Source: a virus. Taken from it: DNA of 64,000 nt. The notes beneath the pieces are model-generated. The model was not told where the DNA came from. It ran no database searches and saw nothing but the letters and a program-made list of their open reading frames with translations. A program made the position numbers and the translations under genes. Where the stretch lies: IMG/VR virus record IMGVR_UViG_3300017934_000005, positions 32,676 through 96,675 of that record; one strand, given 5' to 3'. Below are positions 39,857 to 54,121 of the stretch, piece after piece (within the stretch, counting starts at the first letter, position 1; every line of letters begins with the position of its first letter).

Positions 39857-41953
39857 TTAGATTCCTTCTTTCAATAAATACACCATGGCCGGTTTGTGAT
39901 CCGGCCCTCCGCGAACACCATCGCGGTAAGCTAGAATATGCTGATCTTGGAGTGTTTTGAATACTTGCATCCATAGGCGTCCCTGGCCCAAGCCATCAAG
40001 TTTTCGATACAAGTCTCGATACGGAACTTTTCCACCTGAGCGTTGCACTTCTCGGACAATGACTTTAGCGAGTCTACCATCAAGAGTTTCGGCTTCTACC
40101 GGATCGAGATAAGCTTTCGTATCCCGAGCATAGACAGTCAGAGCCTTAGCCTTCTCAATGTCCTCAAACATAATTTTGTCATGACCGGAATCTACGGCAA
40201 AGTAGAGAGCGAATCGCTCAGTAAGGGTTTGCTCTCGGGCATCAAGGCCATCAAAGTGACGATCCACGTCTGAAAACTCATCATATTCGTATTCCTTACG
40301 AGCCGTAGCCGCACTGATACAAGCCTTAGTTTTCTGCAACCCCTCCAAGCTAAACTGATCCAATTGCGCGTGGAACAGAGCTTTTTTGGGCTGATCTGGC
40401 GTGATCAGGAAAAACATTCGATCATTCAGACCGCTGCTATCGCCAGGGAGTTTCGACCACAGAGTTGGGAATTTGCGATCCGTAGTACACCACATCCAGG
40501 AGAAGCAATAACTATTCGAATCGAAAGTAAAGGATTCCTTTCGCGCCTTGATCGAGTTCGAAAACCGTCTAGACTCGTAGAAACTCAACATGTCATCAGT
40601 GAAGCTGGAGTTCTCGATTCTGGCCTTCTGAATGAATTTGCTAAGCTCGTCAAAGAACACAACCGCGTTCCGGGCTTGCATTCGGTACATCTCCAGACCC
40701 AAACCTTCTGTGCTACCTGGACTGATAATCACAGTCTGACCATTCGCGCTTGTCAGTTTTTGATTGTGATTTGTAGCCAGGTTCATGACTCGAAAATATT
40801 CTTGAGCAATCTCACAGCTTGTGCTCTTATAAAACTTACCGTAAGGTGAGATGATACCCAAGAAAATAACTGGCGTGAACGGTCTGTTCTTGACTGTAAC
40901 CTTGGTGCCAAGATAGTTCAAGTACATGACCAGAGCCGGCATAAAGACTAGCTCGGGATACTTATCACTGGTCTGCTCCACAGGTCCGACCAAACCATCC
41001 CATAGCGATGTGCCTCGCATGATCCAGGTCGGAAAGATCGGATGTGGTACAATCGAGGATGTCTCAATCTCAGGTTCATCATCCTGCTGAGCCTCGCGGG
41101 TCTGCTTCAACTGCTCGGCTTGGGCATCAATATTCTGTTTGAACACATCTACTGGAACCGGCCGCTTACCAATGCTATGCGCGATCTTCTCGCACATCTC
41201 TCGATAATCTGAGCCGTAGTTCTCACACCGAGCTTCGCAGATCACGATGAGTCTGGAACAGAGTTCATCCTCACTCCAGTCTGGATTCTCGTGATGCAAC
41301 TTGCCAGCAATCGAAGTCAACGTGGTATCATGGGCTCCATAAGGAATCTTCGGCCCATCTGAAGCTGTATCCACAGTTTTGAATTCTCGCTGCGTCGGCT
41401 CCTGATACTCGAAACGATCTATTTTCTTCTGACTAATACACCAATCTATTAACCAGTCTGGAGCCTCACTGAGAGGAGACTCATCTATGATCCGATACTG
41501 CTGACCGGAATCTGGATGCCAGGAACCGGGACCGACTACGTATTGATTATCAACTCTGGCACTCCAATCCTCGTTCTTGACGAAACCTTGGGCCAAGTTG
41601 CCCATATGGATCGAACGCGGACTCTGTTTGAAATAGAAATGGCCTCGACCAGGACGGGATCGCACCTTGAACGTAGCAATACTGAACAGCAGTTTACCGG
41701 TCTCGGCTTCAACACGCTGCGCTACTTCAACTCTATCTATTTCGAAGAACCAGACCCCACTCGGCACTCCCTTGGCAACAGATGCAACATTGGCATCTGG
41801 ATATGTTTGGTCCCAAGCTTCGATTACAGCCGGTTCAGTTGTAGCCTTGCTAGGCCAGTCTGAAAGAAAAGCTTGTTTTGTGTGGGCTCGAAGAGGGACA
41901 ACTGGAATGCCTAACTGAATGAGTGGAGTTGCAATCTCTTTAAAAAAAGCCAT
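39857..41953 (-). CDS. Bifunctional primase-polymerase with C-terminal P-loop-like domain
   Basis: N-terminal Prim-Pol pattern (VVPL...W...ATT...W, GRGHFYF, YVVGPGSWHP..G..Y, APDWL); C-terminal STEGL, FDELS, DRM. Confidence 0.8.
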   Translation of the reverse strand: MAFFKEIATPLIQLGIPVVPLRAHTKQAFLSDWPSKATTEPAVIEAWDQTYPDANVASVAKGVPSGVWFFEIDRVEVAQRVEAETGKLLFSIATFKVRSRPGRGHFYFKQSPRSIHMGNLAQGFVKNEDWSARVDNQYVVGPGSWHPDSGQQYRIIDESPLSEAPDWLIDWCISQKKIDRFEYQEPTQREFKTVDTASDGPKIPYGAHDTTLTSIAGKLHHENPDWSEDELCSRLIVICEARCENYGSDYREMCEKIAHSIGKRPVPVDVFKQNIDAQAEQLKQTREAQQDDEPEIETSSIVPHPIFPTWIMRGTSLWDGLVGPVEQTSDKYPELVFMPALVMYLNYLGTKVTVKNRPFTPVIFLGIISPYGKFYKSTSCEIAQEYFRVMNLATNHNQKLTSANGQTVIISPGSTEGLGLEMYRMQARNAVVFFDELSKFIQKARIENSSFTDDMLSFYESRRFSNSIKARKESFTFDSNSYCFSWMWCTTDRKFPTLWSKLPGDSSGLNDRMFFLITPDQPKKALFHAQLDQFSLEGLQKTKACISAATARKEYEYDEFSDVDRHFDGLDAREQTLTERFALYFAVDSGHDKIMFEDIEKAKALTVYARDTKAYLDPVEAETLDGRLAKVIVREVQRSGGKVPYRDLYRKLDGLGQGRLWMQVFKTLQDQHILAYRDGVRGGPDHKPAMVYLLKEGI

Positions 41954-41974: not shown

Positions 41975-42028
41975 GGGCGGTCTCTGCCGCCCGTCAAGCC
42001 TAGTCTCTAACCGACCGGCTTTCGTCGG
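41975..42028 (-). ncRNA. Pseudoknot-type structured RNA motif, copy A (5' of primase)
   Basis: CCGAC-GAAAGCCG-GTCGG...ACTAGGCTTGAC-GGGCGG-CAGAGA-CCGCCC; covaries with copy B. Confidence 0.65.
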
Positions 42029-42053
42029 ACAATCCGAAGGTTATTCCTTCGAC

Positions 42054-42653
42054 TTAGAACGTGGCATTGGTGGACTGAGCAGCAGGCGGTGCAGGAGGGG
42101 TGTACGATCCCGCAACGCTTGCTGCCGGTTGGACAGGCTGAGCCTGCGGTGCCGGGGTTCCGGCTGTTGCTTGCAACCGAGCCGCAGCCGCTAGATTATC
42201 TCCCGGAACAAACGGCTTCTTGTCCTTGGCTCGAACGAAATCGGTTGGAATTTTCGGCACTACGGCTCCGGGAGGAAGGGCGTTGATACCCTTGATATTG
42301 GAGAATTCCTTACCCTGTTCGTTCTTTTCCCTCATGATAAACAACTGGCTCGCCTTACCGATCAGAAGCTGAGCTAGTGCCTCAGTATTTTGAACGATAG
42401 GGGGGTTGGTACCTAGAATGGCGCGGACTGCTTTGAACAGGTCGGCCTTCTCATGCATTGTTCCGTTTTTCGTCAGGACAGCATGATACGGCTTGCCCTG
42501 AGAATTGTTCTTGTCCAGAATCCAGACGATTCTTACCCGGTTTTTCTCGCCAAACTTGGTCTTGACACCATACAAATCGACCACATCAGCAATCACTCCG
42601 ATGAAAATCCCGGAATCTGGCTGTTCATATGTCGAATTTTGACCTAACTCCAT
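42054..42653 (-). CDS. Putative ssDNA-binding protein
   Basis: OB-like beta-rich N-terminus, Pro/Ala-rich tail ending in F; next to primase. Confidence 0.55.
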   Translation of the reverse strand: MELGQNSTYEQPDSGIFIGVIADVVDLYGVKTKFGEKNRVRIVWILDKNNSQGKPYHAVLTKNGTMHEKADLFKAVRAILGTNPPIVQNTEALAQLLIGKASQLFIMREKNEQGKEFSNIKGINALPPGAVVPKIPTDFVRAKDKKPFVPGDNLAAAARLQATAGTPAPQAQPVQPAASVAGSYTPPAPPAAQSTNATF

Positions 42654-42668
42654 TGCTTTTCTCCTAAT

Positions 42669-43187
42669 CTATCCACAGTTGATCCATGGATAAGTCTGTT
42701 CTAGTACTGGTCTGTTAAGATAAGCTTTTAGAAAATCTGGCAACAGATCAACATCGCCGCGCTTTTCAAATAAGCCTAAAACAACATTACATCTGTGGCA
42801 TAACAAACCGCGAATACACTTCCCGCAAGACCGATATCCTTGACAACAAGCGTGGTCATGATCTATTCGAGGAATATTAAAGGAATCTCCAGAGCCTCTG
42901 TCAGAAAAAATCAAACCACAGGGACACCGTCCGTGTTGCCTAATTAGAAACTCATCAAATTGACGCTGCGAAATATGATATGTCCACTCTAAAGTGTATT
43001 CAGGTTTCGCAAGTCTCCGTAACCGCGCTTTTTCTCTTGTTTTTTCTCGATGGCCTTCATTCCACTTCCGATTTCTTATGCGATCACACTCTAAACACGA
43101 ACGCTTATTCCGCAGCAGCCCAGTCCAGTGAACATTCTCACCACTTAACGCATGTCCTCGTTTACAGTGTTCTCTTAATTTCCCCAT
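42669..43187 (-). CDS. Endonuclease VII-like HNH homing endonuclease
   Basis: HCKRGH Zn finger; IDHDHACC...IRGLLCHRCN. Confidence 0.85.
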   Translation of the reverse strand: MGKLREHCKRGHALSGENVHWTGLLRNKRSCLECDRIRNRKWNEGHREKTREKARLRRLAKPEYTLEWTYHISQRQFDEFLIRQHGRCPCGLIFSDRGSGDSFNIPRIDHDHACCQGYRSCGKCIRGLLCHRCNVVLGLFEKRGDVDLLPDFLKAYLNRPVLEQTYPWINCG

Positions 43188-43918
43188 ACTTGATCTAGTG
43201 ATAAATCCTTGCGAACGCTAATCTCAAAAGGGGCCGAGTTTCTAAGATTTTCTACATCGATTTCCTTGACTGCTTTCCACCACAATTTCAAATCACTATT
43301 CCACCAAAACTTGAGTTTTTTGGCATCGTTGTTATTACCACGTCCTTGATGACTCTGAAGGATGACAAACGGGGATCGGGCTCTTGCCAGGATCGGCTCT
43401 ATGTTACCATCCTGCGGCGTGTGTTCTTCGATCAAAAGCAAAGCACTGAGGGCATCCGTAAAAGCAGAATGCGGAAATGGATTTAAGACCATGTGGTCCG
43501 CAAGCATATATTGAAGCTTCTTGCCTTCGATGCCAGGGATATCCCAGAGAGTGTCAATAATCACTTTTTCTTTCAGAGTAGGAGCAAAGTGATTTTTGCG
43601 AGCCATCCAATTGTCCAGGACCAACTTATCAAAACGAATTATGTTCTGACCTAGGAGTCCATCGGCTTGATTCGCCATTCCAAGCAGAGTTGCGAGGGCA
43701 TCGTGTTCCTCAAATCCAAATCGATCCACTGCGGCCTGAGTAAGTCCTGTAATCCTTGTGATTTCCTCAGTAACCGGTGCATCTGATTTAACCAGACAAT
43801 CTATGGCAGCTAAAACACGATGCTGAGCCGTGGACCAGAGTACGGCTCCGGCTTCTATGACACGATCATTGGCTGGGTCTAAGCCAGTGGTCTCAAAATC
43901 TAGCGATAATAGGATCAT
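43175..43918 (-). CDS. DnaQ-like DEDDh 3'-5' exonuclease
   Basis: DFETTG, N..FD, IDT, HSAFTD. Confidence 0.9.
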   Translation of the reverse strand: MILLSLDFETTGLDPANDRVIEAGAVLWSTAQHRVLAAIDCLVKSDAPVTEEITRITGLTQAAVDRFGFEEHDALATLLGMANQADGLLGQNIIRFDKLVLDNWMARKNHFAPTLKEKVIIDTLWDIPGIEGKKLQYMLADHMVLNPFPHSAFTDALSALLLIEEHTPQDGNIEPILARARSPFVILQSHQGRGNNNDAKKLKFWWNSDLKLWWKAVKEIDVENLRNSAPFEISVRKDLSLDQVWGN

Positions 43919-44311
43919 GACGGTTTGTGTTCAACGGTCTCAAGCGAACCTTGGCCGGTTAAGGGGATGCCGGGTTCTTCAACCCGAGGAAGTTCTGTCA
44001 TGGGTTTAATAACAGTTTCTATATACCGAATGTTATCCATCGGGGCAAAGTATCGAAGTGATGGGTCCAAAAGTTGCTCCGGCGTCAAAACCTTCTTGGT
44101 AACATCAGGTTTAAAGACCAGCATACCGCGTTGAAACCCAATGTTGATAAGGCGCGTGTTGACATCGTTTATGAGACTGGCCTTATTCGGGCAATGGTAT
44201 ATGTTGCCTTCCACAACCACAGCAGGAGAGCCAGGAAAAAGTGCCGGCTCCTTTACATAGCCGATAAATTCAACCCAAGCATCGAACGCAGGCGGGTCTT
44301 TCTTGATGTTT

Positions 44312-44596
44312 TCAGGAACTGGAACGCTCACTCTTGGTGTCCTTTCCGAGAATATCATCTTCCTTGAGTATCAGATACTTCTCGCCGTCGAGTTCAATCT
44401 CGGTGCCGCTATACTTGCCGAAATAGATATGATCACCAACTTCAACACCAAGGTTTCGACGGCCTACGGCCAGGACTTCGGCTTCCATCGGCCGTTCTTT
44501 AGCCGTGTCAGGGATGAAAAGGTTTCCCTTCGTGACTTCCCGGTCGGGAAGGACTCGAATGAGAGCGCGATCACCAAGTGGTTTAAAATTTAGCAT
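44312..44596 (-). CDS. groES: Co-chaperonin GroES
   Basis: FKPLGDR...IPDTAKERP...VLAVG...KYSGTEIELDGEKYLILKEDDILG. Confidence 0.95.
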   Translation of the reverse strand: MLNFKPLGDRALIRVLPDREVTKGNLFIPDTAKERPMEAEVLAVGRRNLGVEVGDHIYFGKYSGTEIELDGEKYLILKEDDILGKDTKSERSSS

Positions 44597-44987
44597 TAGG
44601 ATACGGCCGGCTGAATGTTAACCGGTTTCCCCTCCCGCAGCGCAGTTTCAGCAGTACGTGCAGCTTCTGCAGCTTGAGCAGCGGCTCGAACAGCAGCGAG
44701 TTGATCGCCACTAGGCATCTGGATGAGTTTTTTCTCTTCGTAGTTGTGCTTCTGAGTCTTGATTCCTTCAACTTCACAGACATCAGAACAGTATGTGAAA
44801 GACTTGTCAGGAGCCTGAGGATGTTCCTTGAACAGAGCGCCGACAATACGCACATTTTTGAGCCAGGGATTTGCTTTGATGGTTTCCTCGGCTTGAGACT
44901 GTGCGAATGTCACTAACTTGTCACAGCCAGGAGCATCGCATTTGATGGTTTGAACTAGTGTGTTAACTATTGACATTCATTTCTCCT

Positions 44988-45458
44988 TTATTTCTTCAGC
45001 GGATCGCAATTCGGACTCTCATTGCGTAGCCGTCCTGTTTCTGAATTTGGGATTAAACAACCTTCTGCAGTGGTAACTTCATTAAACTTCTTCAATCCAC
45101 CACCTAGGATTGGAAACTCGCTGGAAGAATGTCCTGCTAGACGCTCTAGATCAGATGGACGCCCATGAACCATCAAGAGACGAACTAACAAACCAATCAC
45201 CTTGATGATTCGAACACGAACCGATCCACCATCCGGCGTAAAATTCGTGAATGCAAGACGGGCTTCGTCCAAATATTTATCAGCAAATGTAACGAAATCC
45301 ATCTGTGAATACGGCTGACCGACCAGTGGCGCTAGAGGGTTCACATCCTCATTGGCAACACCTTCTACCAAAGAGATTTTACGGCTACCTTTAGCCCAGC
45401 CTTTTGCATATTCAGACTCCTTCCTGATCAAATCAAAAACTTGTTCTTGCGTTAACAT
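44988..45458 (-). CDS. All-alpha NTP-PPase-like hypothetical protein
   Basis: QVFDLIRKESEY...IIKVIGL pattern shared with 48061..48327. Confidence 0.4.
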   Translation of the reverse strand: MLTQEQVFDLIRKESEYAKGWAKGSRKISLVEGVANEDVNPLAPLVGQPYSQMDFVTFADKYLDEARLAFTNFTPDGGSVRVRIIKVIGLLVRLLMVHGRPSDLERLAGHSSSEFPILGGGLKKFNEVTTAEGCLIPNSETGRLRNESPNCDPLKK

Positions 45459-45715
45459 TAGTAAACATCTCCATTCTGTTTTATTTTTTCGTCTTCGTAT
45501 GGGGCGACCACACGACGATAGAATTCTTGTTTTGCACCTTCAAAGACACCCAAGATGCCGTTCAATCTAGCATAATTTTTCACATCTTTGTTCAGATAGC
45601 TCATAACGATGGTGGTTAAAACGTAGTTTAGTTCTCCTACGTCTTGGATTCTTTCACCTAGAATATCAGCTTCGGCGAGAAATTCTTGTCTAATTGCCGG
45701 TTTGATATATGGCAT
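45458..45715 (-). CDS. Conserved small phage protein (MPYIK...GELNY...YEDEKI..NGDVY type)
   Basis: Recognisable motif family in phage nucleotide-metabolism clusters. Confidence 0.7.
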   Translation of the reverse strand: MPYIKPAIRQEFLAEADILGERIQDVGELNYVLTTIVMSYLNKDVKNYARLNGILGVFEGAKQEFYRRVVAPYEDEKIKQNGDVY

Positions 45716-46164
45716 TACTTGTGCCCCTTTCGTTTTGAAGTCTTCTGGAGTCCGATCAAATAATTCTTGAGTTCGTCTAGATGACGAAGGTGAGTCATCT
45801 CGGGTAGATAATCAAAGATGGGCTGTGGACCGCCTACGATCACGATACGTTTTCCTTTCGCATAAGCAAGCCCCTGCTCAAACATTCGGGACCCGGTCGC
45901 AAGCTTGGCCGGTACGGTTGCACCACTCAGGTCATCACTGAACCGGACTAACATATCGGCTCTTAGGACATCATCCACGTCCTCCTGAGCCCGGCGACGG
46001 CGAAAACGATTGCCTCGAACTATCTTTGAGCCTAGAACCGTGGGTTCTTTTAACCACCGACTGGTAATTTCCAAGTTCGGAAGTTTCCTCAACTCATTAG
46101 CAACCTCTGCAATTTCATCTCTCCTAGACCAAGCTGCAGCTAGATAAATCTTAAGTAATTTCAC
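45715..46164 (-). CDS. Nucleoside deoxyribosyltransferase-like protein
   Basis: KIYLAA...TSRW...EDVDDV..AD...FEQGLAYAKGK..VIVG. Confidence 0.7.
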   Translation of the reverse strand: MKLLKIYLAAAWSRRDEIAEVANELRKLPNLEITSRWLKEPTVLGSKIVRGNRFRRRRAQEDVDDVLRADMLVRFSDDLSGATVPAKLATGSRMFEQGLAYAKGKRIVIVGGPQPIFDYLPEMTHLRHLDELKNYLIGLQKTSKRKGHK

Positions 46165-46342
46165 GGATTCGTTTCCTTTATTCTGAATATGTGTTGGAGT
46201 GGAAACTTATAAACGATATCAGTATCAGTTGAAACGAACTTATTCATCATCACACAATATAGATCACCTTTTTGATATGCATTGCGAACATCCAATATTC
46301 TTATTGGTTCTGATTGTGTGTAGAGATGGACTTCGATAGTCA

Positions 46343-46741
46343 TTAGAATGCTCGATTGTGCTTGTATGGTCTTTTACTGTTGTAAACCGTCTTTGCCATT
46401 ATCGCTTCAGGAATATTCCACCCCTTGTTTCGAGCTATGTTCATGAGACGAATAACGGCATCTGCAATCTCTTCCTCGGCATGACTAAACTCTGGAATTT
46501 TCTGACTCGGCGGATTGCCGTCTCGCATAGCTTCCAAAGTTTCACTCAACTCCCCGTGAGTCAGGGCAATCTTCTCACCAAAATTCTGATCCGGTTCCTC
46601 GAAGCCGTGAGCCTGATTAACTTGCCAAGTTGCTTCCTCGAAAAGGTGCCAAAGAGCAGCAAACTTATCAGCCTCATTTTGCACAGTTCGAACTAAGTGA
46701 TCTTGGAGTTCTTTATTTTTGAGTTCCGGTATTTCCGACAT
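46343..46741 (-). CDS. MazG-like NTP pyrophosphohydrolase
   Basis: IALTHGELSETLEAMR...EEEIADAVIR...K..YN..RPYKH; probable start MSEIP. Confidence 0.8.
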   Translation of the reverse strand: MSEIPELKNKELQDHLVRTVQNEADKFAALWHLFEEATWQVNQAHGFEEPDQNFGEKIALTHGELSETLEAMRDGNPPSQKIPEFSHAEEEIADAVIRLMNIARNKGWNIPEAIMAKTVYNSKRPYKHNRAF

Positions 46742-47186
46742 TGTCGAATTGCTCCTGTGATATTCCGAAGAAATCTCGAAGTCTGGTATATTCGTATTCG
46801 GCCAAGGGTTCGGCCGGTGCATCCTTGATCTGATCCCACATATCCGACAACTGAGCCGGCCTCGTGCCAATCCTAGACAGCCAGGATGTAAAGACATAGC
46901 CGACCATATTCCAGATCACTTGGCTCGCGTGGGGTTCATCACGTAGGCCAGCCTTGAGCTTGGCTAGATGACGTTCGGCGCTATCCAGATAATTACTTAG
47001 AGGCATTCCGTGTTCCCAGTTTCGAGCCGCGTACTTGACTGCGCCGTCCTCGTAGATACACGAGACCAACCACATCACCCAGTTCGGGAACAGAGAAGGC
47101 TTGCCTTTCCCACGTTGCCTATCCCGTTGGGCACCGGTTTGAAACGTTGTCCGTTCTCCGCTATCCTTAAATTCAGTCACCTTCAA
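46713..47186 (-). CDS. dATP/dGTP diphosphohydrolase-domain protein
   Basis: FQTGAQRD...GK...GAVKYAARNWEHG...SAERHL...DEPH. Confidence 0.8.
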   Translation of the reverse strand: MKVTEFKDSGERTTFQTGAQRDRQRGKGKPSLFPNWVMWLVSCIYEDGAVKYAARNWEHGMPLSNYLDSAERHLAKLKAGLRDEPHASQVIWNMVGYVFTSWLSRIGTRPAQLSDMWDQIKDAPAEPLAEYEYTRLRDFFGISQEQFDNVGNTGTQK

Positions 47187-47370
47187 TCTCCTCTTTAGTC
47201 AAGGGACGAATCTCTTGAATGTAGTAAAACAGGCGGGGATCATTGCTGTCGTCTTCAGACAGATAAACTTTATCGCCTACGATTCGAACGATTTTCTGGT
47301 ACTGAGATTGAGATTCCATAATCTCTTCAGAATTAATGTCCAAAGCAACTACTTGCCCTTTCTTGAACAC
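47173..47370 (-). CDS. Small KOW/SH3-like protein (paralog of cassette cargo)
   Basis: FKKGQVV...IRPLTKEEI. Confidence 0.55.
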   Translation of the reverse strand: MFKKGQVVALDINSEEIMESQSQYQKIVRIVGDKVYLSEDDSNDPRLFYYIQEIRPLTKEEIEGD

Positions 47371-48060
47371 TAGTCCTCCCGAAGATAGGTCAGAATTACG
47401 ACCTGCTCGTTCTCACCGAAGTCTGGGCCATATGCTTTTCGCATCGAATCCAGAAGTCCTAAGTATTGACGAGAACGAATCTCATGCTCATGCTCTAAAT
47501 ATCGTGCCGGCACATCCTTAAAGAGACCAGACCAAATATCCGTAACCAGGCCGTGCCCTTCAATTTTGTGCGTCGGAACCCCGATTAGAAACGGGACCGG
47601 CCCTTCTTCCGTACATGCAATTCGGTTACAGACGCAAAGTTCTATAGTCAAACCGAACGCATCAGCCCATTTGTTTCCCTTTCGTACTGTGGAGCCGTGT
47701 TCCCCGACAGCACAGTCGAGGCTGTGAAGCATGTGAAGTGTTCTCATTTTTATCTCCGCGCACTCCCCAGTCTGAGGATCGTAATCACATTCTCGACCGG
47801 GATGCGCTGCTTTACATCGTCCACAGAACTGAGTTGCCATTACCCATTCACTTTCAGCCACTGACGTTTATTGTTCCAAATATTTCTAGCTGTTCGCGGA
47901 TGGACTAAAGCAGCATATCCGCAAAGCTGATCTATTGAGCTTATGATGGCCGCTTGTTTTCGAACCCCAGATCGTATGAAACCCTGAACGGACAATAAGA
48001 ACTGAACGATTCGACACGTTGGGATTTGATTACCTTTGGTATCCAAAAAACGCTGTTTTT

Positions 48061-48327
48061 TCATTTTCTATCTCGTATCCCGCTATAGATCATTCCACGA
48101 ATGAAGATCGCTGCTAACTTACGGAGGAAAGGAAGCGCGGCTTCGTTTCCTTTGTTATCAGACCAGGCGTCCTCCAAGCGTCGTAGGTAAACTCGGCCAA
48201 GTGTTGCGAACCCTTCGGGACCTTTCGCTTCACTCTCCTCCGTGCGTCGAGGCAAGTTGTTTTGATATTCTATTTCTGACCAAACTGCCTCGACAGCTAT
48301 ATCAAAAACAGCTCTGCTAACAATCAT
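48061..48327 (-). CDS. All-alpha NTP-PPase-like hypothetical protein
   Basis: AVWSEIEYQ...LRKLAAI. Confidence 0.4.
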   Translation of the reverse strand: MIVSRAVFDIAVEAVWSEIEYQNNLPRRTEESEAKGPEGFATLGRVYLRRLEDAWSDNKGNEAALPFLRKLAAIFIRGMIYSGIRDRK

Positions 48328-49070
48328 TTATCCACCTTGACTGCAGAGCCCTCGAACCAACCACCGCAGTGTTGGCACTGGAATCTTTGCTTCTTTCTCA
48401 AGAGCGTGAAGGCCCATCCACGTCTTTGAACCTTGTCTGATCCGCACTTAGGGCAGTTATAAAGCTCGCCCTGATTTACGTTCGGATGATTCTTCATCCA
48501 AGGCCGCATCATGAAGTAGACTCGTTCGAGCAAAATTATGTCTCGTCCGTTATACCGCTTCATTTTCTTCCAGGCTTTGGGATCGCCTTGCATACAGGCT
48601 TGCCACAAATGAAAGCCTGTATGAGCCAGTTTCCGGCCGATTCCGAGGCAACGACCTACTTCATCAAGCTTGTTGGAATCAAACTTGAAGACTTTGCGAG
48701 CTATCTGAAGCGTATCAACCGTCTTATAAGGCGACGGCGGCTTCAAGCCGTGGATCAAAAATCTTGTGTTGATCTTGGGTACATCGAATCGATCACCGTT
48801 GTGGGCCACAACGATATCGGCTTCGTCAAGAACTTTCCAGAGTTCCTGAATTAACTGTTTGTCATTCTCCTTGGCATTTTCGTAACCAGGGTAATCAGCA
48901 AGACAATAGGTTCTGACTTTCTGTCCTGGTTCCTTGACTGCGAAACTAAGTACGTACCAATCTGCTTTGAAATCGATTACATCCTGTTGCCATTTACCCC
49001 ATACCCATCCGAGGCTCGGTGCTGTCTCAATGTCCACGAAGACAAGTCTAGCAGGCGTGCTCTTAACCAT
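48324..49070 (-). CDS. RNase H-fold 3'-5' exonuclease with C-terminal Zn ribbon
   Basis: DIETAP, AHNGDRFD, SNKLD, YNGRD, CPKC...CQHC. Confidence 0.85.
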   Translation of the reverse strand: MVKSTPARLVFVDIETAPSLGWVWGKWQQDVIDFKADWYVLSFAVKEPGQKVRTYCLADYPGYENAKENDKQLIQELWKVLDEADIVVAHNGDRFDVPKINTRFLIHGLKPPSPYKTVDTLQIARKVFKFDSNKLDEVGRCLGIGRKLAHTGFHLWQACMQGDPKAWKKMKRYNGRDIILLERVYFMMRPWMKNHPNVNQGELYNCPKCGSDKVQRRGWAFTLLRKKQRFQCQHCGGWFEGSAVKVDK

Positions 49071-49098
49071 AGAACTCCAGAGAAACTTTGTTGGATGT

Positions 49099-49785
49099 TT
49101 AAAACGACAGGTTGTGAATTCTGCCGAGAGTGAACCCTGTCACAACTCCGGCAATGAACCACTTGAATTTGCTCTTGCGAGCCTGAGCTTTCACCGTAAC
49201 TATTTCTTGATTTGCTGCATCCAACTTAGCCTGGATCGCATTCACATCACTCTTGTGAGATTGTTTCTCAGAATCAAGAGCTTTTGCATCGTTAGCGATT
49301 ATTACGGTATCGTTGGCAATGACGGTCTGATCGGCAGCTAGTTCCTGCCTGAGGATAGCCGGCTCTTCAAGTGCTTGAGCCACGGAAACGGCTTCGGATT
49401 GGTCCATCTGATAAGCACTTCCGACCACAGTAACGGAACCGCCAGGGGCCAGAGTTTGAATACGCGAGGCAAGATCATTCGGAGCAAGGGTAGCATCTTT
49501 TTTCTTATTTGCTTGAAGCTGCGAAATAAGGCTGGAGACTAAAACTGTTTGCTGTTGATTCGCGGTCTGCAACTGAGTATTTTGTATAGCCAGTTGAGCC
49601 ATTTGATCCGTTATCTGTTTCTGAAACTGGGCGTTTGAAGAATCTTTTTGATCCGCCAGAGTCTTTAAGTCTTCATACCTCTGCTCTGCTCGGCTGGCTA
49701 TCCGAGACTCAATCGCGTAAGTGAGGCCCAAGGCGAGAAAAATAGTTGCAATGTAGAGCGTGATATGATGGCGATCCAAAGTCAT
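49099..49785 (-). CDS. Membrane-anchored coiled-coil protein (spanin-like)
   Basis: N-terminal TM, long Gln/Ala coiled coil, C-terminal hydrophobic segment. Confidence 0.5.
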   Translation of the reverse strand: MTLDRHHITLYIATIFLALGLTYAIESRIASRAEQRYEDLKTLADQKDSSNAQFQKQITDQMAQLAIQNTQLQTANQQQTVLVSSLISQLQANKKKDATLAPNDLASRIQTLAPGGSVTVVGSAYQMDQSEAVSVAQALEEPAILRQELAADQTVIANDTVIIANDAKALDSEKQSHKSDVNAIQAKLDAANQEIVTVKAQARKSKFKWFIAGVVTGFTLGRIHNLSF

Positions 49786-50183
49786 TGTTCTTCTCTCTTA
49801 ATATAGGTTCTAATAGGAACGCGATTTTTCTGCGCTTTTAATAACTTCTTTCGGGCCTTCCGCTGCACCTTGGTTCCTACTCGGTGTGGTAGACCATAGT
49901 GAGGATGTCCCAGGGCTTGAGTCGCGGGAGGATTCTTAGCATATCTGAGGATATTCTCCAAACGTTCTATTGTGACCCAGTCCGGGATAAGTTTATTACA
50001 ACGGAAACACAGTAGACCACGGACGAGACCTGTCTTATGGTCATGATCAGTGAGAGTACAATGATCAGGAAGGGGTTCTCCACAACCGGGGCAGAGACCA
50101 TTCTGAAATCTGTAGATTAGTATCCACTCGTCTTGCGTCAGGAGGAACGTGAGACGTAGATAATTCGCGTTCGGAACCTTCAT
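49782..50183 (-). CDS. Endonuclease VII-like protein
   Basis: FQNGLCPGC...DHDHKTGLVRGLLCFRCN. Confidence 0.85.
   Translation of the reverse strand: MKVPNANYLRLTFLLTQDEWILIYRFQNGLCPGCGEPLPDHCTLTDHDHKTGLVRGLLCFRCNKLIPDWVTIERLENILRYAKNPPATQALGHPHYGLPHRVGTKVQRKARKKLLKAQKNRVPIRTYIKREEQ
49799..49825 (-). promoter_or_regulatory. Phage-specific promoter-like motif, copy 2
   Basis: ATCGCGTTCCTATTAGAACCTATATTA, 13 nt before spanin-like ATG. Confidence 0.65.
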
Positions 50184-50184
50184 C

Positions 50185-50211
50185 TAATCTAGGTTCCGAT
50201 AGGAACGCGAT
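50185..50211 (-). promoter_or_regulatory. Phage-specific promoter-like motif, copy 3
   Basis: ATCGCGTTCCTATCGGAACCTAGATTA, 1 nt before EndoVII ATG. Confidence 0.65.
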
Positions 50212-50373
50212 TTATTTCATGTAGATTTTACGCAGTGGGTAGAACTTACTCATCCCATGGTTCTAGCTTGGGAACAAAGACCGGAATCGGCATATTTCTG
50301 AGCCGGCGAAACCAAGATTTCGCCAGGTGATAGATTGGAGGCCGAGGCCGGTAATACCAACGAAAGAGACGAA

Positions 50374-51060
50374 TCATTCCTCGTCTTTCTCCTTGTCGTA
50401 AACCGTACCGTGATGATCAGGATCGTTATCAGGCACAAAGACCGGTGTGATGTCATGCTTCTCCGCGTCTTGGACGGCCTCAGAACCATGTTCGCTCTCA
50501 TTGAATATCTTCTCGATGCGCTCGGGAATCCAAGCATAGAAGATGCCAGGAAACGAAGCGATGAGTCCACCTTTGAGTTTGGGATTGAGTTCTACATCCT
50601 CCGGCATCACGGGGCGCTCGATGGTCTTGCGATGGGCCAGGAACACTGGGGTCCCGATCTTAAAGCCTCGCGGGATAGCCTTGATGCGACGGCTGAGGCC
50701 CATTGCCAAGCCTTCCCGGAGAAACTTGGCCGGTGACGGGTAAAAACTACCCCCAATCCAGAGCAAGCCAGCCTTTTCAAACTTGCCGGGAGTAGTACAG
50801 AGCCAACAACCTTCTTTACACTCACAAAGTTTGCTTTCTGTAAACATGCCGTCAAAATGTGACTTTAAATGCAGACCTTGGAACAAGAGACCGGGCTTGA
50901 TCCAGGTCCAACCCAGTGCCGGCTTAATGCCTGCGCTGCAGCAAGGACAGATTTCAAGCTCAAAGGGGAGACGGTCGCATGGCACTCCGATACCGCCGCC
51001 AACAAGATACGTTCCCCCAGCTTTCCGATATCCACAACCACGTCTGGCTTCGACGGCCAC
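50374..51060 (-). CDS. Cys-rich conserved hypothetical phage protein
   Basis: RRGCGYRK.GG.YL, CPCC; GGAGG RBS. Confidence 0.55.
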   Translation of the reverse strand: MAVEARRGCGYRKAGGTYLVGGGIGVPCDRLPFELEICPCCSAGIKPALGWTWIKPGLLFQGLHLKSHFDGMFTESKLCECKEGCWLCTTPGKFEKAGLLWIGGSFYPSPAKFLREGLAMGLSRRIKAIPRGFKIGTPVFLAHRKTIERPVMPEDVELNPKLKGGLIASFPGIFYAWIPERIEKIFNESEHGSEAVQDAEKHDITPVFVPDNDPDHHGTVYDKEKDEE

Positions 51061-51069
51061 GATTCCTCC

Positions 51070-51312
51070 TTAATAGAGACGAATCGAATCAACTTGGTCC
51101 TTAGCATCTTTGAGACTCGCACCGGTCATCTGACGGAACAGTTTAATGGCTTCGATCTTCCGGCCTTGCTGGACGAGACTGCGGATGTTATCAAATGTTG
51201 CGGGTGGTTCTGTCGTGGTCTGAGATGCCGCTCTCATAGTTGTAGAATAAACATCGACAAACTTCTCTACAGCCGCGACGAATCGATCTTCGGTGAACTG
51301 ATTTCGAAACAA
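51070..51312 (-). CDS. Ribosomal protein bL12 C-terminal-domain-like protein
   Basis: GRKIEAIKLFRQMTGASLKDAKDQVD. Confidence 0.7.
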   Translation of the reverse strand: MFRNQFTEDRFVAAVEKFVDVYSTTMRAASQTTTEPPATFDNIRSLVQQGRKIEAIKLFRQMTGASLKDAKDQVDSIRLY

Positions 51313-51703
51313 GGTAGCCTCCTATTTTGGTATGTACATCTCTCGTGCCGTGACAACTCGATCCCGGCCGATCACTTTCCGAAACCTCACTTTCCGAACA
51401 ATGCAATCCTTGAAAAAGGCCGGGTTACGACGAAATTCATCGCAAGCCAGAGTCTTTGTAGACCAAGCGTGGAATTCCCCAGATGTATCGGGGTCCTCCA
51501 CAGGAGACTCGGCCCTGTGCCATTTGCCGATAGCGTAGCCGTCTTTCCCTCGCCCATGCCAGTCATACGGCGAAGTTAATAAAAGATCGACTCCAAATCC
51601 GGGCTGGAGGCGGAAGATTTTCCAAACCGCGATCACTGTGGTTCGCTTTCCCTCATATCCTTTGGCAACTTCACACATGATCTATTTTCTCCTCAACGAG
51701 GAT

Positions 51704-51733
51704 ATGGTGACATGCCACATGTGTGGCTGTCAA
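51704..51733 (-). promoter_or_regulatory. Sigma70-type promoter (weak -10)
   Basis: TTGACA-18 bp-CACCAT with TG extension; upstream of GAGGAG RBS and ORF 51678. Confidence 0.5.
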
Positions 51734-51785
51734 GCATTATTTTCGGGAATTATAGAGTTAACTCCCTCACTTTTTGTGGCGTCTC

Positions 51786-51923
51786 TCACCCGGATTCCCG
51801 TAGCCTCTTCAATTCTTTGCGTTTATTTTGTCGTACTCTACGCTTCGCCGCCTTCGTTTTCGGCTTCGGGTGATAAGACAAAACTACATCTGTAATTCGG
51901 TCGAGTTCGGGCGGTACTTTCAC
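51786..51923 (-). CDS. 45-aa basic peptide translationally coupled to transposase (not in ORF track)
   Basis: GTG overlaps the transposase TGA; MKVPPELDRITDVVLSYHPKPKTKAAKRR... Confidence 0.55.
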   Translation of the reverse strand: MKVPPELDRITDVVLSYHPKPKTKAAKRRVRQNKRKELKRLRESG

Positions 51924-52837
51924 TTCGTCAACTCCGCATACGTGATTCTCTTTCCTACCACAGCGTCAACAAAACTGTTAATACGCTCCGTGGTGTGCCG
52001 CTGCACTCGGCCAGCATTCAAGCGAAAGGTAAACTCGTCTACGTATCGGCCCATATGCTTGCGACTGGCATGATGATAGACGCCATGCATTCCCCGTTTC
52101 ATCACGGCCCAAACGGACTCGATGGAATTCGTGTGAGCCGTACCACGAACATATTCGCCAGCGACGTGCTTGACTGCTTCATGGCCGTATCCTTCACCAC
52201 GGATGCGAGCATAGCCGGGATTCTCGTCTGTGATGATTACGGAACCAGGGAGCACATTATCCTTGATGGCTGTACGAAGGGCTAAGCCGCCAATGCTATC
52301 CGTAACCTTGGCGACGGTGTTACCACCACGTTCTCGGATACCGATAACGGCGACCTTCTCAGACCGTTCCCTCGGTTTGTTGATTCTGTCGTACATGTGC
52401 CGATTGCTCTCTTCCCCGCCAAAGAACGTCTCATCGGCTTCCACGGTGCCCTTGAGCATCTCAATTTTCGTGCCGCAAGCCTCTCGCAGCCTGTGTAGGA
52501 CGAACCAAGCCGATTTCTGCGTTATGCCTATCTCTTTCCCTAACTGGAGCGAAGAGATGCCCTTGCGTGCTGTAACAAGCAAGTACATGGCATATAGCCA
52601 CTTGTGCAAAGGAACATGGCTCCGCTCGAAGATAGTTCCTGTTCTCACTGTAAAATCCAGTTTGCAGGCGTTGCAACGATAGAAACCATCTTTGCGCTGA
52701 GTGATTCTCTCGCCCGATTTACACTCTGGACAAATAGAACCGTTAGGCCAAAGGCGTCCTTCCAAGTATTTGCGGGCTGTTTCTTCATCTGGAAATAACT
52801 CGAACAGTTTGAAAGTGCTGATTGTACTTCGGCTCAT
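51920..52837 (-). CDS. IS1595-family DDE transposase
   Basis: Zn ribbon CPEC...CNAC, TGTIFE, KGISS HTH, VEADETFFGG, ITDE, HTNSIESVW, YVDEFTFR. Confidence 0.95.
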   Translation of the reverse strand: MSRSTISTFKLFELFPDEETARKYLEGRLWPNGSICPECKSGERITQRKDGFYRCNACKLDFTVRTGTIFERSHVPLHKWLYAMYLLVTARKGISSLQLGKEIGITQKSAWFVLHRLREACGTKIEMLKGTVEADETFFGGEESNRHMYDRINKPRERSEKVAVIGIRERGGNTVAKVTDSIGGLALRTAIKDNVLPGSVIITDENPGYARIRGEGYGHEAVKHVAGEYVRGTAHTNSIESVWAVMKRGMHGVYHHASRKHMGRYVDEFTFRLNAGRVQRHTTERINSFVDAVVGKRITYAELTK

Positions 52838-53648
52838 TGATAGGCTCCTTAACTGAGCCTAGTGTAGATAATTCCCTTGCGGGAGTCAAGTATAATTCTT
52901 GTTCTGTTTCGCAATAAGCCTCTATGAACGCTTGCGCTTGCGGGGCACATAAGGCGTTTCCGAAAGCCTTAGTTTCTTCCACACGGTCGGTAGACCCATC
53001 AATAAACACAGGAACAGGGGATTGAGTTTCCCGCTCCTTCCAAGTTGACGTTGCATGAACTCGTTCAAATTCACCCCACGAGGATGTAATTTCCGTCGCT
53101 CTAGGTTTTGTAGGCTCATACCGCTGCGGTAGTCCCTCGCCATAGGCGTTGGAAGCGCAGAAATAGAGCCGTTGTCGGATGTGCGGAGCACCGAAGCCCG
53201 CAGCGCAGGTATCACACGCCCCGATGGTGTAACCCTTTTCTTCCAAATCATTTGATACAATGTCGAACCACTCAAGACCGCCCTTCGATGAAGTTTGTTC
53301 ACCAAAGATAGTTGAAGGTGCTTTTGCTGCGATAAGTCGGAACCACTCCGGCCATAAATGGCGGCTATCCGAGAAACCTTTTCGGTGTCCCGCCAAACTG
53401 AAAGGCTGGCAGGGGCAACTCCCAGTCCAGACTGGTCTATCATCAGGCCATCCGGCTTGGCGCAAGGCATAACTCCAGACCCCAATTCCTGCAAAGAAGT
53501 GACATTGTGTGTAGCCATATAACTCCTGTGGTTTGACATCTACGATAGAGCGGTCATCAACTTCGCCTGTGGCTATGAGTCCTTCGGCAATCAAGTCTCT
53601 TAACCGAGATGCCGCGAATTTATTATTTTCGTTGTAATAAGCCGCCAT
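52785..53648 (-). CDS. C5-cytosine DNA methyltransferase (alpha chain)
   Basis: FFAGIG (I), GSCPCQPFS (IV), GEQ (VI), PHIRQR (VIII), FGNA (X). Confidence 0.88.
   Translation of the reverse strand: MAAYYNENNKFAASRLRDLIAEGLIATGEVDDRSIVDVKPQELYGYTQCHFFAGIGVWSYALRQAGWPDDRPVWTGSCPCQPFSLAGHRKGFSDSRHLWPEWFRLIAAKAPSTIFGEQTSSKGGLEWFDIVSNDLEEKGYTIGACDTCAAGFGAPHIRQRLYFCASNAYGEGLPQRYEPTKPRATEITSSWGEFERVHATSTWKERETQSPVPVFIDGSTDRVEETKAFGNALCAPQAQAFIEAYCETEQELYLTPARELSTLGSVKEPINEPKYNQHFQTVRVISR
52861..52889 (-). promoter_or_regulatory. Transposase promoter overlapped by TIR-like boxes
   Basis: TTGACT-17 bp-TACACT, embedded in GAATTATACTTGACTCCC and GGGAATTAT. Confidence 0.65.
52922..53539 (-). CDS. Nested alternative-frame ORF, putative MTase beta chain
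   Basis: 205 aa entirely within the MTase gene; LPTPMARD and KLNPLFLCLLMGLP (motif IX-like). Confidence 0.65.
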   Translation of the reverse strand: MSNHRSYMATHNVTSLQELGSGVMPCAKPDGLMIDQSGLGVAPASLSVWRDTEKVSRIAAIYGRSGSDLSQQKHLQLSLVNKLHRRAVLSGSTLYQMIWKKRVTPSGRVIPALRASVLRTSDNGSISALPTPMARDYRSGMSLQNLERRKLHPRGVNLNEFMQRQLGRSGKLNPLFLCLLMGLPTVWKKLRLSETPYVPRKRKRS

Positions 53649-53666
53649 CGAAGTCTCCTAAAATTT

Positions 53667-53718
53667 GGTAGTCTCTCCTACCCGCCAAGCCTAGTTTTTC
53701 GTATCCGGCTTTCGATAC
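53667..53718 (-). ncRNA. Pseudoknot-type structured RNA motif, copy B (5' of MTase, inside IS)
   Basis: GTATC-GAAAGCCG-GATAC...ACTAGGCTTGGC-G-GGTAG-GAGAGA-CTACC. Confidence 0.65.
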
Positions 53719-53758
53719 CCCGAGTTCGTTCGCCCTAGATTCGCTTAGGGAGTTAACT

Positions 53759-54121
53759 CTATAATTCCCTTATTTTCAATACAACTCCCAGGACTGCGTC
53801 AACTAACGGTCCTGACTCCTTGCTAAGACCACGAACTGCACCGGTCTTCGGGTTGAGTTGAATCTCATGGGGAATGTGTTGGCGACGAACTACACGCCGG
53901 AGTTCACCGTGGATTTGTCTGATGCTCATCGCATCTAATTTCTGGTTACGGATGTACAAATCGGGTCGGCGCTCCGCAGCCGTGAGTGACTTCTTGGGCG
54001 AAAGTGGCAGCGTCTCCTCCTCAATTGGTTTCGCAAGCTCGGGATGAGTCTTCAGAACCGCTGCAGCCTGCTGAACTGCAGAACCTGCACTGACAACCGC
54101 AATGCTCTTAACTTGTCCCAT
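53759..54121 (-). CDS. Hypothetical protein whose stop codon is supplied by the IS TIR
   Basis: GGAGG RBS; ends ...LKIREL-TAG inside the TIR. Confidence 0.55.
   Translation of the reverse strand: MGQVKSIAVVSAGSAVQQAAAVLKTHPELAKPIEEETLPLSPKKSLTAAERRPDLYIRNQKLDAMSIRQIHGELRRVVRRQHIPHEIQLNPKTGAVRGLSKESGPLVDAVLGVVLKIREL

What the first reader, a model, noticed from the sequence alone, without database searches (positions are those of the whole stretch)
41975..53718. Duplicated covarying pseudoknot RNA motif 5' of the primase and the methyltransferase
Seen: two copies (41975-42028; 53667-53718) keep the loop GAAAGCCG, the linker ACTAGGCTTGRC and the terminal loop (C/G)AGAGA, while both stems are rewritten compensatorily (CCGAC/GTCGG vs GTATC/GATAC; GGCGG/CCGCC vs GGTAG/CTACC). 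Loop AAGCC is complementary to linker GGCTT, giving a 5-bp pseudoknot. Each copy ends ~20 nt before a start codon and is preceded by another hairpin. Inference: a cis-regulatory RNA (riboswitch or protein-binding leader), a 5' stabiliser or a small ribozyme. One copy travels inside the IS.
Basis: partly seen in the sequence, partly recalled or inferred. Interest (0 to 1): 0.72.

Follow-up and report, generated by a model that had tools for sequence, protein, structure and literature searches.

The report
Uncatalogued phage pseudoknot-hairpin RNA module
The two look-alike stretches are real copies of a small knotted RNA fold that hundreds of unrelated phages carry, usually once per genome, just in front of a gene or a tRNA. 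It is in no RNA catalogue, and its job (my best guess: cutting or marking RNA ends) is untested.

Summary
Copies at 42029-41975 and 53719-53666 share an H-type pseudoknot (P1 hairpin; loop AAGCC pairs with GGCUU), then GAC/GGC, then a hairpin with a (C/G)AGAGA loop. Searches of IMG/VR turned this pair into a large family of at least 184 distinct members. It also occurs in proteobacterial prophages and in cultured Pseudomonas, Aggregatibacter, Sinorhizobium and Gordonia phages. All three helices covary. Rfam 15 has no match and I found no paper describing it.

The motif always lies in sense with its neighbours. It sits 17-21 nt before start codons of unrelated genes, or inside tRNA arrays (0-6 nt after CCA, 3-8 nt before the next tRNA). 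Seventeen of 18 near-complete genomes have one copy. Closer orthologues of the primase lack it.

The window has two copies because copy 2 is cargo of a freshly inserted IS1595-family element (perfect 23-bp inverted repeats, 8-bp target duplication). Relatives of that element carry a sigma-70-like promoter at the same place.

A gene-specific riboswitch and a sigma-70 promoter are effectively excluded. My best guess is an autonomous self-cleaving or end-defining RNA (confidence 0.3). The rivals are a free-standing small RNA and a put-like antiterminator. Nothing was tested experimentally.

The parts
41975..42029 (-). Motif copy 1 (native copy): P1 hairpin, pseudoknot, GAC, P2 hairpin with CAGAGA loop
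   Evidence: Sequence. Covariance model R1 scores it 49.8 bits, E 9e-13.
42011..42028 (-). Copy 1 P1 hairpin: CCGAC/GUCGG closing the loop GAAAGCCG
   Evidence: P1 covaries across the family.
41996..42021 (-). Copy 1 pseudoknot helix: AAGCC (42021-42017) pairs with GGCUU (42000-41996)
   Evidence: The helix is 99.7% paired and 3 of its 5 pairs change on both sides across the family.
41975..41992 (-). Copy 1 P2 hairpin: GGGCGG/CCGCCC, loop CAGAGA
   Evidence: P2 covaries.
42034..42052 (-). 7-bp hairpin between the stop codon of the upstream ORF (42054) and copy 1; not a conserved part of the family
   Evidence: Minimum-energy fold.
39857..41953 (-). Prim-Pol / helicase (primase) gene; its ATG lies 21 nt after copy 1
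   Evidence: Pfam PF09250 5.7e-23; PHROG DNA primase.
53666..53719 (-). Motif copy 2 (IS-borne): P1 GUAUC/GAUAC, pseudoknot AAGCC/GGCUU, GGC, P2 GGUAG/CUACC with GAGAGA loop
   Evidence: Sequence. R1 scores it 54.4 bits, E 4e-14.
52785..53648 (-). C5 cytosine DNA methyltransferase gene (IS cargo); its ATG lies 18 nt after copy 2
   Evidence: PF00145; phrog_363 1e-61.
51920..52837 (-). IS1595-family (ISXO2-like DDE) transposase gene; overlaps the end of the methyltransferase gene
   Evidence: PF12762 3.6e-39 and PF12760.
51745..53769 (-). Whole IS1595-family element (2,025 bp). Order on the minus strand: inverted repeat, copy 2, methyltransferase, transposase, inverted repeat
   Evidence: Perfect 23-nt inverted repeats at 51745-51767 and 53747-53769. 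The 8-bp direct repeat TTATTTTC lies at 51737-51744 and 53770-53777.

Best explanation
The two sites are members of one widespread, uncatalogued phage RNA family. Each is a self-contained module of about 45-75 nt: a short hairpin whose loop forms a 5-bp pseudoknot with a downstream strand, then U-GAC-A, then a hairpin closed by G-C with a GAGAGA loop. It acts as RNA in its own right and does not switch the primase or methyltransferase gene.

The mechanism I think most likely is end definition on a polycistronic early or tRNA transcript. The module would cut itself, most plausibly at its 5' border. This would resemble HDV-like 'theta' ribozymes behind phage tRNAs, or the 5' ribozymes of R2 retrotransposons. 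The cut would free the upstream tRNA or mRNA and leave the downstream RNA with a compact structured 5' end just ahead of its ribosome-binding site or tRNA.

Shown: the fold, its covariation, its strand, its positions and its copy number. Inferred: every step about cleavage.
For: Structure under selection:
- P1 has a covariation score of 0.656 against 0.193 in shuffles (0 of 500 reach it) and at most 0.241 when the partners are slid.
- The pseudoknot is 99.7% paired. Eight helix variants were seen: AAGCC/GGCUU, ACGCC/GGCGU, AAGUC/GACUU, ACGAC/GUCGU, AUGCC/GGCAU, ACGUC/GACGU, ACGCG/UGCGU and AAGCC/GGUUU. P2 covaries in all 5 pairs.

Size and make-up resemble small ribozymes: about 50 nt, some 10-12 fixed letters at junctions and loops, and an optional inserted hairpin in the variable linker.

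The host range suggests a self-contained activity. Members occur in phages or prophages of alpha-, beta- and gamma-proteobacteria and of Gordonia.

Position:
- The motif is always in sense: tRNAs within 150 nt are 19 on the same strand and 0 opposite; a Shine-Dalgarno plus start codon follows in 19 cases against 0 on the antisense strand.
- In tRNA arrays P1 starts 0-6 nt after the encoded CCA, for example CCA|ACAUC in L063 and CCA|GUCGC in L107. The module ends 3-8 nt before the next tRNA.
- A stable knot that abuts a tRNA 3' end needs a dedicated cut. This is the situation in which theta ribozymes work (PMC10879173).

Modular and sporadic: downstream genes are unrelated, and primase orthologues at 37-43% identity lack the motif while one at 29% has it.

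IS context: the window's element has this module exactly where three related elements checked have a sigma-70-like promoter; none of the 80 related loci carries the motif. This fits expression from read-through transcripts that must be cut free.
Against: - No cleavage data of any kind exist.
- I could not name a conserved scissile dinucleotide.
- The topology does not match HDV-like, hammerhead or pistol folds, and no Rfam ribozyme model gives even a weak hit.
- No known ribozymes lie nearby in 143 kb of motif-bearing loci.
- There is no link with RtcB end-joining ligase: 2 of 50 records carry it.
- One copy per genome in 17 of 18 near-complete genomes is odd for a general 'punctuation' device. 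It fits a single RNA gene or a single regulatory site equally well.
- Self-cleavage would leave a 2',3'-cyclic phosphate on an already encoded CCA end, which then needs repair.
Confidence: 0.3

Rival explanations
1. It is a free-standing small RNA gene. The module is released from the precursor by ordinary host enzymes: RNase P at the next tRNA, tRNA 3' processing, and RNase E in the A/U-rich spacer before the Shine-Dalgarno sequence. It then works in trans by binding a conserved bacterial or phage partner, as a decoy, sponge or cofactor. T4 species 1 and 2 RNAs, which also sit in a tRNA cluster, are a comparable case.
For: - There is one locus per genome in 17 of 18 near-complete genomes.
- Inside arrays it is spaced like one more tRNA unit.
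- It lies in non-coding 'RNA islands' of Pseudomonas phage Itty13 and Aggregatibacter phage S1249, together with tRNA-like genes.
- The invariant letters (U-GAC-A, GAGAGA loop) look like a recognition surface.
- It is portable as IS cargo.
Against: - No partner is known, and no protein gene co-occurs with it in the flanks I examined.
- In most members it is only 17-21 nt from a start codon, so release would cut the mRNA leader.
- A knot abutting CCA would hinder exonucleolytic maturation of the upstream tRNA.
Confidence: 0.25
2. It is a put-like, factor-independent antiterminator. The nascent RNA folds, binds the RNA polymerase that made it near the RNA exit channel, and makes that polymerase read through pauses and terminators into delayed-early genes and tRNA arrays.
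For: - There are one (rarely 2-3 tandem) copies per genome, in sense, upstream of replication genes and tRNAs.
- It has two helical domains joined by a short linker, as HK022 put RNA has (PMC9378689).
- RNA polymerase is universal, which would fit the broad host range.
- In S1249 it lies in a long leader that also holds an rrn-type boxA, CGCTCTTTAACAA.
Against: - It shows no sequence or fold likeness to put, which has two long stem-loops, a triplex and about 70 nt.
- There is no systematic terminator downstream. The terminator-like profile is flat, with a slight excess upstream.
- Native copy 1 of the window sits in the middle of a long co-directional gene block, not near an operon start.
Confidence: 0.12
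3. It is a cis-acting 5' leader element for the downstream gene. It would serve as a translation enhancer or insulator that keeps the ribosome-binding site open, as a 5' stabiliser, or as the operator of a repressor protein.
For: - The spacing to start codons is tight, with a mode of 17-21 nt, whereas the distance from the upstream gene varies from 4 to 150 nt.
- In L003/L010 the GGAG of the loop may itself serve as the Shine-Dalgarno sequence.
Against: - The same module directly precedes tRNAs, where translation is irrelevant.
- Only one gene per genome has it.
- That gene differs from phage to phage, and orthologues lack it.
Confidence: 0.12
4. It is a riboswitch aptamer that senses a small molecule such as a nucleotide or SAM.
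For: - H-type pseudoknots are common aptamer folds.
- Several downstream genes act on DNA: primase, DNA polymerase, exonuclease, methyltransferase.
Against: - There is no expression platform. The module ends 3-8 nt before tRNAs and does not overlap the Shine-Dalgarno sequence.
- Downstream genes share no pathway.
- No Rfam riboswitch gives a hit.
- The linker length varies from 2 to about 60 nt.
Confidence: 0.04
5. It is a DNA-level signal: a sigma-70 promoter whose -35 box is the conserved (T/G)TGACA.
For: - The conserved UGACA resembles TTGACA.
- The module lies a short distance upstream of genes and tRNAs.
- In the IS it replaces a promoter.
Against: - A -10-like hexamer lies at 16-18 nt in only 5 of 184 members, fewer than at control offsets.
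- No promoter was called at either window copy.
- The transcription start would fall inside the tRNA in the array cases.
- Three covarying helices, one of them a pseudoknot, are not explained by duplex-DNA recognition.
Confidence: 0.02

Closest known systems
Theta (minimal HDV-like) ribozymes next to phage tRNAs (PMC10879173)
   Same: Both are small pseudoknotted RNAs of about 50 nt in Caudoviricetes. Both lie in sense and start within a few nt of a tRNA 3' end. Both are also found alone in intergenic DNA, with one or a few copies per genome.
   Different: The fold differs. This motif has no nested double pseudoknot, no P1.1 and no J4/2 catalytic C. The hosts here are Proteobacteria and Actinobacteria with CCA-encoding tRNAs, not gut Bacteroidota or Bacillota phages. 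Cleavage has not been shown.
Pistol self-cleaving ribozyme (Rfam RF02679)
   Same: The order of elements is the same: a hairpin whose loop forms a 5-6-bp pseudoknot with a downstream strand, a purine right after that strand, then a second hairpin. Both are about 50 nt and phage-associated.
   Different: This motif lacks the enclosing P2 helix that presents the G-U cleavage site; nothing conserved follows the last hairpin. The Rfam model gives no hit even at E<=10.
HK022 put antiterminator RNA (PMC9378689)
   Same: Both are cis-encoded, protein-independent candidates with two helical domains. Both occur in one or two copies in early transcripts.
   Different: put has two long stem-loops with a triplex, is about 70 nt, and is known from only a handful of lambdoid phages. 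There is no sequence or topology match, and no terminator relation is seen here.
Lambda-type nut site boxB hairpin
   Same: Both have a short covarying stem with a conserved purine-rich loop in an early transcript.
   Different: boxB is a 5-nt GNRA-like loop bound by phage-specific N proteins and sits next to boxA. Here there is a 6-nt GAGAGA loop coupled to a pseudoknot, across phages that share no N protein.
T4 species 1 and 2 RNAs (rnaC, rnaD), and the RNase P-processed phage RNAs C4 of P1/P7 and CI of P4 (from my own knowledge, not tested here)
   Same: All are small stable structured RNAs embedded in phage tRNA clusters or operon leaders and released by tRNA-processing enzymes.
   Different: There is no sequence or structural similarity. 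Those RNAs are lineage-specific, whereas this family spans bacterial phyla.

Membership tests
Any Rfam 15 family | Covariance-model score at or above the family's gathering threshold | tested here: not met
   There were 0 hits in the 64-kb window. At E<=10 on the two sites only chance-level hits appeared, none to a ribozyme model (a 9.4-bit Glutamine-II match lies beside, not on, copy 2). Nine further loci and then 143 kb of motif-bearing loci gave tRNA (at E<=0.1 also sub-threshold tRNA-Sec and Plastid-ycf2 matches on tRNA genes) and nothing on the motif.
HDV-like / theta ribozyme | Nested double pseudoknot (P1, P1.1, P2, P3, with or without P4) with a catalytic C in J4/2 and a G-U pair at the base of P1 | tested here: not met
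   I mapped the helices by hand. The helix order is X-Y-X'-Y'-hairpin. There is no P3/L3 between the strands, only 1-2 nt (GA) where J4/2 would be, and no conserved C.
HDV-like / theta ribozyme | Self-cleavage at the 5' end of the fold | not testable with these tools
   This needs an in vitro transcription and cleavage assay.
Pistol ribozyme | P2 helix pairing the linker with the 3' tail, so as to present the G-U cleavage site after P3 | tested here: not met
   The tails after P2 are unconserved and not complementary to the linker. In arrays the tail is 3-8 nt and runs straight into a tRNA.
Hammerhead ribozyme | Three-way junction with the CUGAUGA and GAAA cores | tested here: not met
   GAA-A(N4)...(N4)U-N could mimic GAAA plus stem III, but no CUGAUGA is present. 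The topology is a pseudoknot, not a three-way junction.
HK022 put RNA | Two long stem-loops of about 70 nt, placed downstream of an early promoter and upstream of terminators | tested here: not met
   The architecture differs, and there are no enriched downstream terminators. Antitermination activity itself cannot be tested here.
Riboswitch (generic) | An aptamer coupled to an expression platform, with consistent downstream gene function | tested here: not met
   Members end 3-8 nt before tRNAs. Downstream genes are unrelated. Orthologous primase genes lack the motif.
Sigma-70 promoter | A -35 hexamer followed by a -10 hexamer at 16-18 bp | tested here: not met
   5 of 184 members have a -10-like hexamer at that spacing. 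None was called at the window sites.
IS1595-family insertion sequence (context of copy 2) | DDE_Tnp_IS1595 transposase, terminal inverted repeats, 8-bp target duplication | tested here: met
   PF12762 and PF12760; perfect 23-bp inverted repeats; TTATTTTC on both sides.

The most novel reading that the evidence does not exclude
The module is a new structural class of small self-cleaving ribozyme. It would be the proteobacterial and actinobacterial phage counterpart of theta ribozymes. It would cut at its own border to release tRNA 3' ends and to free promoter-less genes, including the cargo of an insertion sequence, from read-through transcripts.
Probability: 0.25. Interest if true: 0.85.

Novelty: categorically new. 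Interest (0 to 1): 0.7.

Why it matters
- A 50-nt RNA fold that is kept almost letter for letter in its core by phages of several bacterial phyla, yet missing from Rfam and from the papers I could search, is a rare find.
- If it cleaves itself, it adds a new ribozyme class and a compact insulator part for synthetic operons and tRNA arrays.
- If it binds RNA polymerase or another host machine, it reveals a widespread takeover device.
- In any case it corrects annotation. In Pseudomonas phage Itty13 an annotated protein gene overlaps the RNA-rich region.
- It also shows that insertion sequences can carry such RNA modules as cargo in place of a promoter.

Tried and rejected
- **Rfam:** the whole window at gathering thresholds, both sites at E<=10, nine more loci at E<=0.1 and 143 kb of family loci. 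Nothing but tRNA matched.
- **Literature:** searches by sequence words and by topic found no description. The 2023 catalogue of 10,006 unnamed viral structured RNAs (PMC10690425) may contain the motif, but no supplementary files are held.
- **RNA evidence:** no RNA holder was listed for the window, so no reads could be laid.
- **Phage P1:** My model and a loose pattern found nothing convincing in NC_005856.
- **E. coli genomes:** no BLAST match.
- **RtcB link:** the window's phage encodes RtcB, but only 2 of 50 motif-bearing records do.
- **Primase-specific regulation:** rejected.
- **Motif as a fixed part of the IS family:** rejected; 0 of 80 related transposase loci have it.
- **Empty insertion site in a related phage:** none found by exact 20-mer.
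- **Sigma-70 promoter:** rejected.
- **Terminator profile around the motif:** flat and uninformative.
- **Crude ORF-overlap test of strand:** uninformative in GC-rich DNA. I replaced it with the tRNA test and the Shine-Dalgarno plus start-codon test.
- **Phage phiEt88:** the BLAST hit is only a degenerate look-alike at 16 bits.


Full report
**1. The observation**

Both sites read 5'->3' on the minus strand.
- Copy 1 (42029-41975) is UCCGAC-GAAAGCCG-GUCGG-UUAGAGACUA-GGCUU-GAC-GGGCGG-CAGAGA-CCGCCC.
- Copy 2 (53719-53666) is GGUAUC-GAAAGCCG-GAUAC-GAAAAACUA-GGCUU-GGC-GGGUAG-GAGAGA-CUACC.

The shared pattern occurs twice in the window against none in 100 shuffles. A covariance model (R1), run without filters, finds only these two copies in the window and in the whole 96.7-kb virus record.

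Copy 1 ends 21 nt before the ATG of a Prim-Pol/helicase gene. Copy 2 ends 18 nt before the ATG of a C5 DNA methyltransferase gene. A 7-bp hairpin precedes copy 1. The one before copy 2 is weak.

**2. It is a large family, and all three helices covary**

A scan of IMG/VR with the two fixed words gave 54 loci. Thirty-two distinct ones also had the unsearched part: GAC, then a stem, a (G/C/U)AGAG(A) loop and the return stem.

A second scan left the ten pseudoknot letters free. It returned the same architecture with other, still complementary, helices: ACGCC/GGCGU (the commonest), AAGUC/GACUU, ACGAC/GUCGU, AUGCC/GGCAU, ACGUC/GACGU, ACGCG/UGCGU and AAGCC/GGUUU.

Pair counts:
- On a gap-free alignment not fitted to any structure, the two inner P1 pairs are formed in 49 and 48 of 56 sequences, with five or six pair types each. 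The covariation score is 0.656 against 0.193 in shuffles and at most 0.241 when the partners are slid.
- On a model-based alignment of 76 distinct members, the pseudoknot is 99.7% paired, with changes on both sides in three of five pairs. P2 covaries in all five pairs. That alignment leans toward the structure by construction.

A third scan left the 5' half free. It showed that 'CUA' before the knot and the loop letters G-A...G are not invariant; AA...A, G...G and GUA...A forms exist. The truly fixed core is the 3' strand of the knot, then U-GAC-A, then a hairpin closed by G-C with a GAGAGA loop. The linker between P1 and the knot runs from 2 to about 60 nt and often holds an extra hairpin.

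**3. Where it occurs**

- Prophage-like regions of Caballeronia, Pseudolabrys, a Pseudomonadales MAG and Rhodospirillaceae.
- Cultured phages: Pseudomonas Itty13 (36 bits), Aggregatibacter S1249 (27 bits, two to three copies), Gordonia LittleMunchkin (25 bits) and Sinorhizobium phiM9 (23 bits). About 60 Vibrio phages carry a GGAAAGAC-loop variant.
- Nothing was found in E. coli genomes.

**4. Context**

The motif is strictly in sense:
- tRNAs within 150 nt are 19 on the same strand and none on the other.
- A Shine-Dalgarno sequence plus the start of an ORF of at least 60 codons follows within 3-45 nt in 19 of 71 members, against 0 for the mirrored test. Distances cluster at 17-21 nt.

In tRNA arrays the module fills the spacer exactly. 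P1 starts 0-6 nt after the encoded CCA (CCA|ACAUC in L063, CCA|GUCGC in L107). P2 ends 3-8 nt before the next tRNA.

Downstream genes are unrelated: primase (twice), DNA polymerase, exonuclease, methyltransferase, a head-tail adaptor and small ORFs. The primase of L024 is a 29%-identical orthologue of the window's primase and also has the motif. The four closer orthologues (37-43% identity) do not.

In 17 of 18 near-complete genomes there is exactly one copy. One genome has three copies in tandem within 270 nt.

**5. The second copy came with an insertion sequence**

Window 51745-53769 is bounded by perfect 23-nt inverted repeats and the 8-bp duplication TTATTTTC. On the minus strand it contains copy 2 (28 nt inside the repeat), the methyltransferase gene and an IS1595-family transposase gene.

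None of 80 related transposase loci in other phages has the motif. Their elements carry other cargo, and the three I checked have a good sigma-70-like promoter (9-11 of 12 matches) at the same place. The window's element has no such promoter.

**6. What it is not**

- It is not in Rfam 15.
- It is not a sigma-70 promoter, despite the (T/G)TGACA. A -10-like hexamer at 16-18 nt occurs in 5 of 184 members, and in arrays the start site would fall inside the tRNA.
- It is not a gene-specific riboswitch or operator. There is no room for a platform before tRNAs, the downstream genes are unrelated, and orthologues lack it.
- By hand mapping it is not HDV-like/theta (no P3/L3, no J4/2 C), not hammerhead (no CUGAUGA, and a knot instead of a junction) and not pistol (no enclosing P2 helix).
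- It does not resemble put RNA.

**7. Best explanation and rivals**

The module is autonomous and portable, independent of host lineage, and is placed at RNA boundaries. A stable knot that begins right after a tRNA's CCA would block normal exonucleolytic trimming unless something cuts at that border. Theta ribozymes do exactly this job in gut phages. A 5' ribozyme that frees a mobile element's message from a host co-transcript is known from R2 elements (my own knowledge). That parallels the IS, which has this module in place of a promoter.

I therefore rank a self-cleaving or end-defining module first, at 0.3.

Points against it:
- There are no cleavage data and no identifiable scissile site.
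- No known ribozymes lie nearby.
- There is no RtcB association.
- One copy per genome fits two rivals equally well: a single small-RNA gene released by tRNA-processing enzymes (0.25), and a put-like RNA acting on RNA polymerase (0.12).
- The terminator profile does not help to choose.

A cis leader for translation or stability (0.12) explains the 17-21-nt spacing but not the tRNA cases.

**8. Earlier notes of this scan**

Two earlier findings on other genomes (e1-5802752 and e1-2576196) describe what is evidently the same 'pseudoknot clamp plus GAGAGA hairpin' as unclassified. They agree with my reading and add no function. Their statement that phage P1 carries the motif was not reproduced here.

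**9. Verdict**

It is wrong in tying the motif to the two downstream genes. The family is real, broad and uncatalogued, and its function is open. Bench tests are cheap and are listed under the next steps.

Noticed in passing
window 51737-53777: A recently inserted IS1595-family element (perfect inverted repeats, 8-bp duplication) carries a C5 DNA methyltransferase as cargo. The stop codon of the upstream 120-aa ORF (54121-53759, minus strand) lies inside the inverted repeat, so the insertion altered that ORF's end.
   Followed up: yes
L183-L262 (IMG/VR loci); e.g. L183:1512-3563, L186:1925-3563, L235:1895-3443: The same IS family is common in phages: 162 loci encode a relative of the transposase. 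Between the left inverted repeat and the transposase it carries variable cargo of 0 to about 1 kb, and the three elements scanned have a sigma-70-like promoter just inside the repeat.
   Followed up: partly
window 20796-21983, 27399-28325 and 5076-5972 (all minus strand): The phage encodes an RtcB RNA ligase, a DHH phosphoesterase and a tyrosine integrase. It has no tRNA genes in the window.
   Followed up: partly
L181:2100-3340 (Pseudomonas phage Itty13, MW460249.1 about 34650-35890): An RNA-rich gap on the strand opposite to the annotated genes holds two motif or P2 copies. It also holds tRNA-like units, each enclosed by a long helix (CUGCAUCGG...CCGAUGCAG), which ARAGORN does not call. The annotated CDS QRE00608 overlaps this gap and may be spurious.
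   Followed up: partly
L362:1400-2720 (Aggregatibacter phage S1249, GQ866233.1 about 34270-35590): After a terminator and an AT-rich promoter region comes a 1.2-kb non-coding leader. It contains an rrn-type boxA (CGCTCTTTAACAA at L362:1681-1693), two motif copies, an unannotated tRNA (2522-2609) and a third CAGAGA-loop hairpin.
   Followed up: partly
L009:4265-4347; L016:1226-1305; L013:2750-2849: tRNA genes directly upstream of the motif escape the default ARAGORN settings. One has an 8-nt insert in the anticodon loop. One is a tRNA-Asp(GUC) with C at position 33. One is called only with a 10-nt intron.
   Followed up: partly
L180:2809-2896 (Vibrio phage 1.103.O, MG592475.1): The GenBank record annotates tRNA-Ser(GCU) on the strand opposite to the one ARAGORN calls. 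On ARAGORN's strand it is co-oriented with the motif-like element 285 nt upstream.
   Followed up: no
G027 (L059) 18649-18917; L083:10102-10221; L161:4047-4261: Some phages carry two or three tandem copies 20-120 nt apart. The later copies have a weaker pseudoknot (GGAACGCAC...GGCGUGAC).
   Followed up: partly
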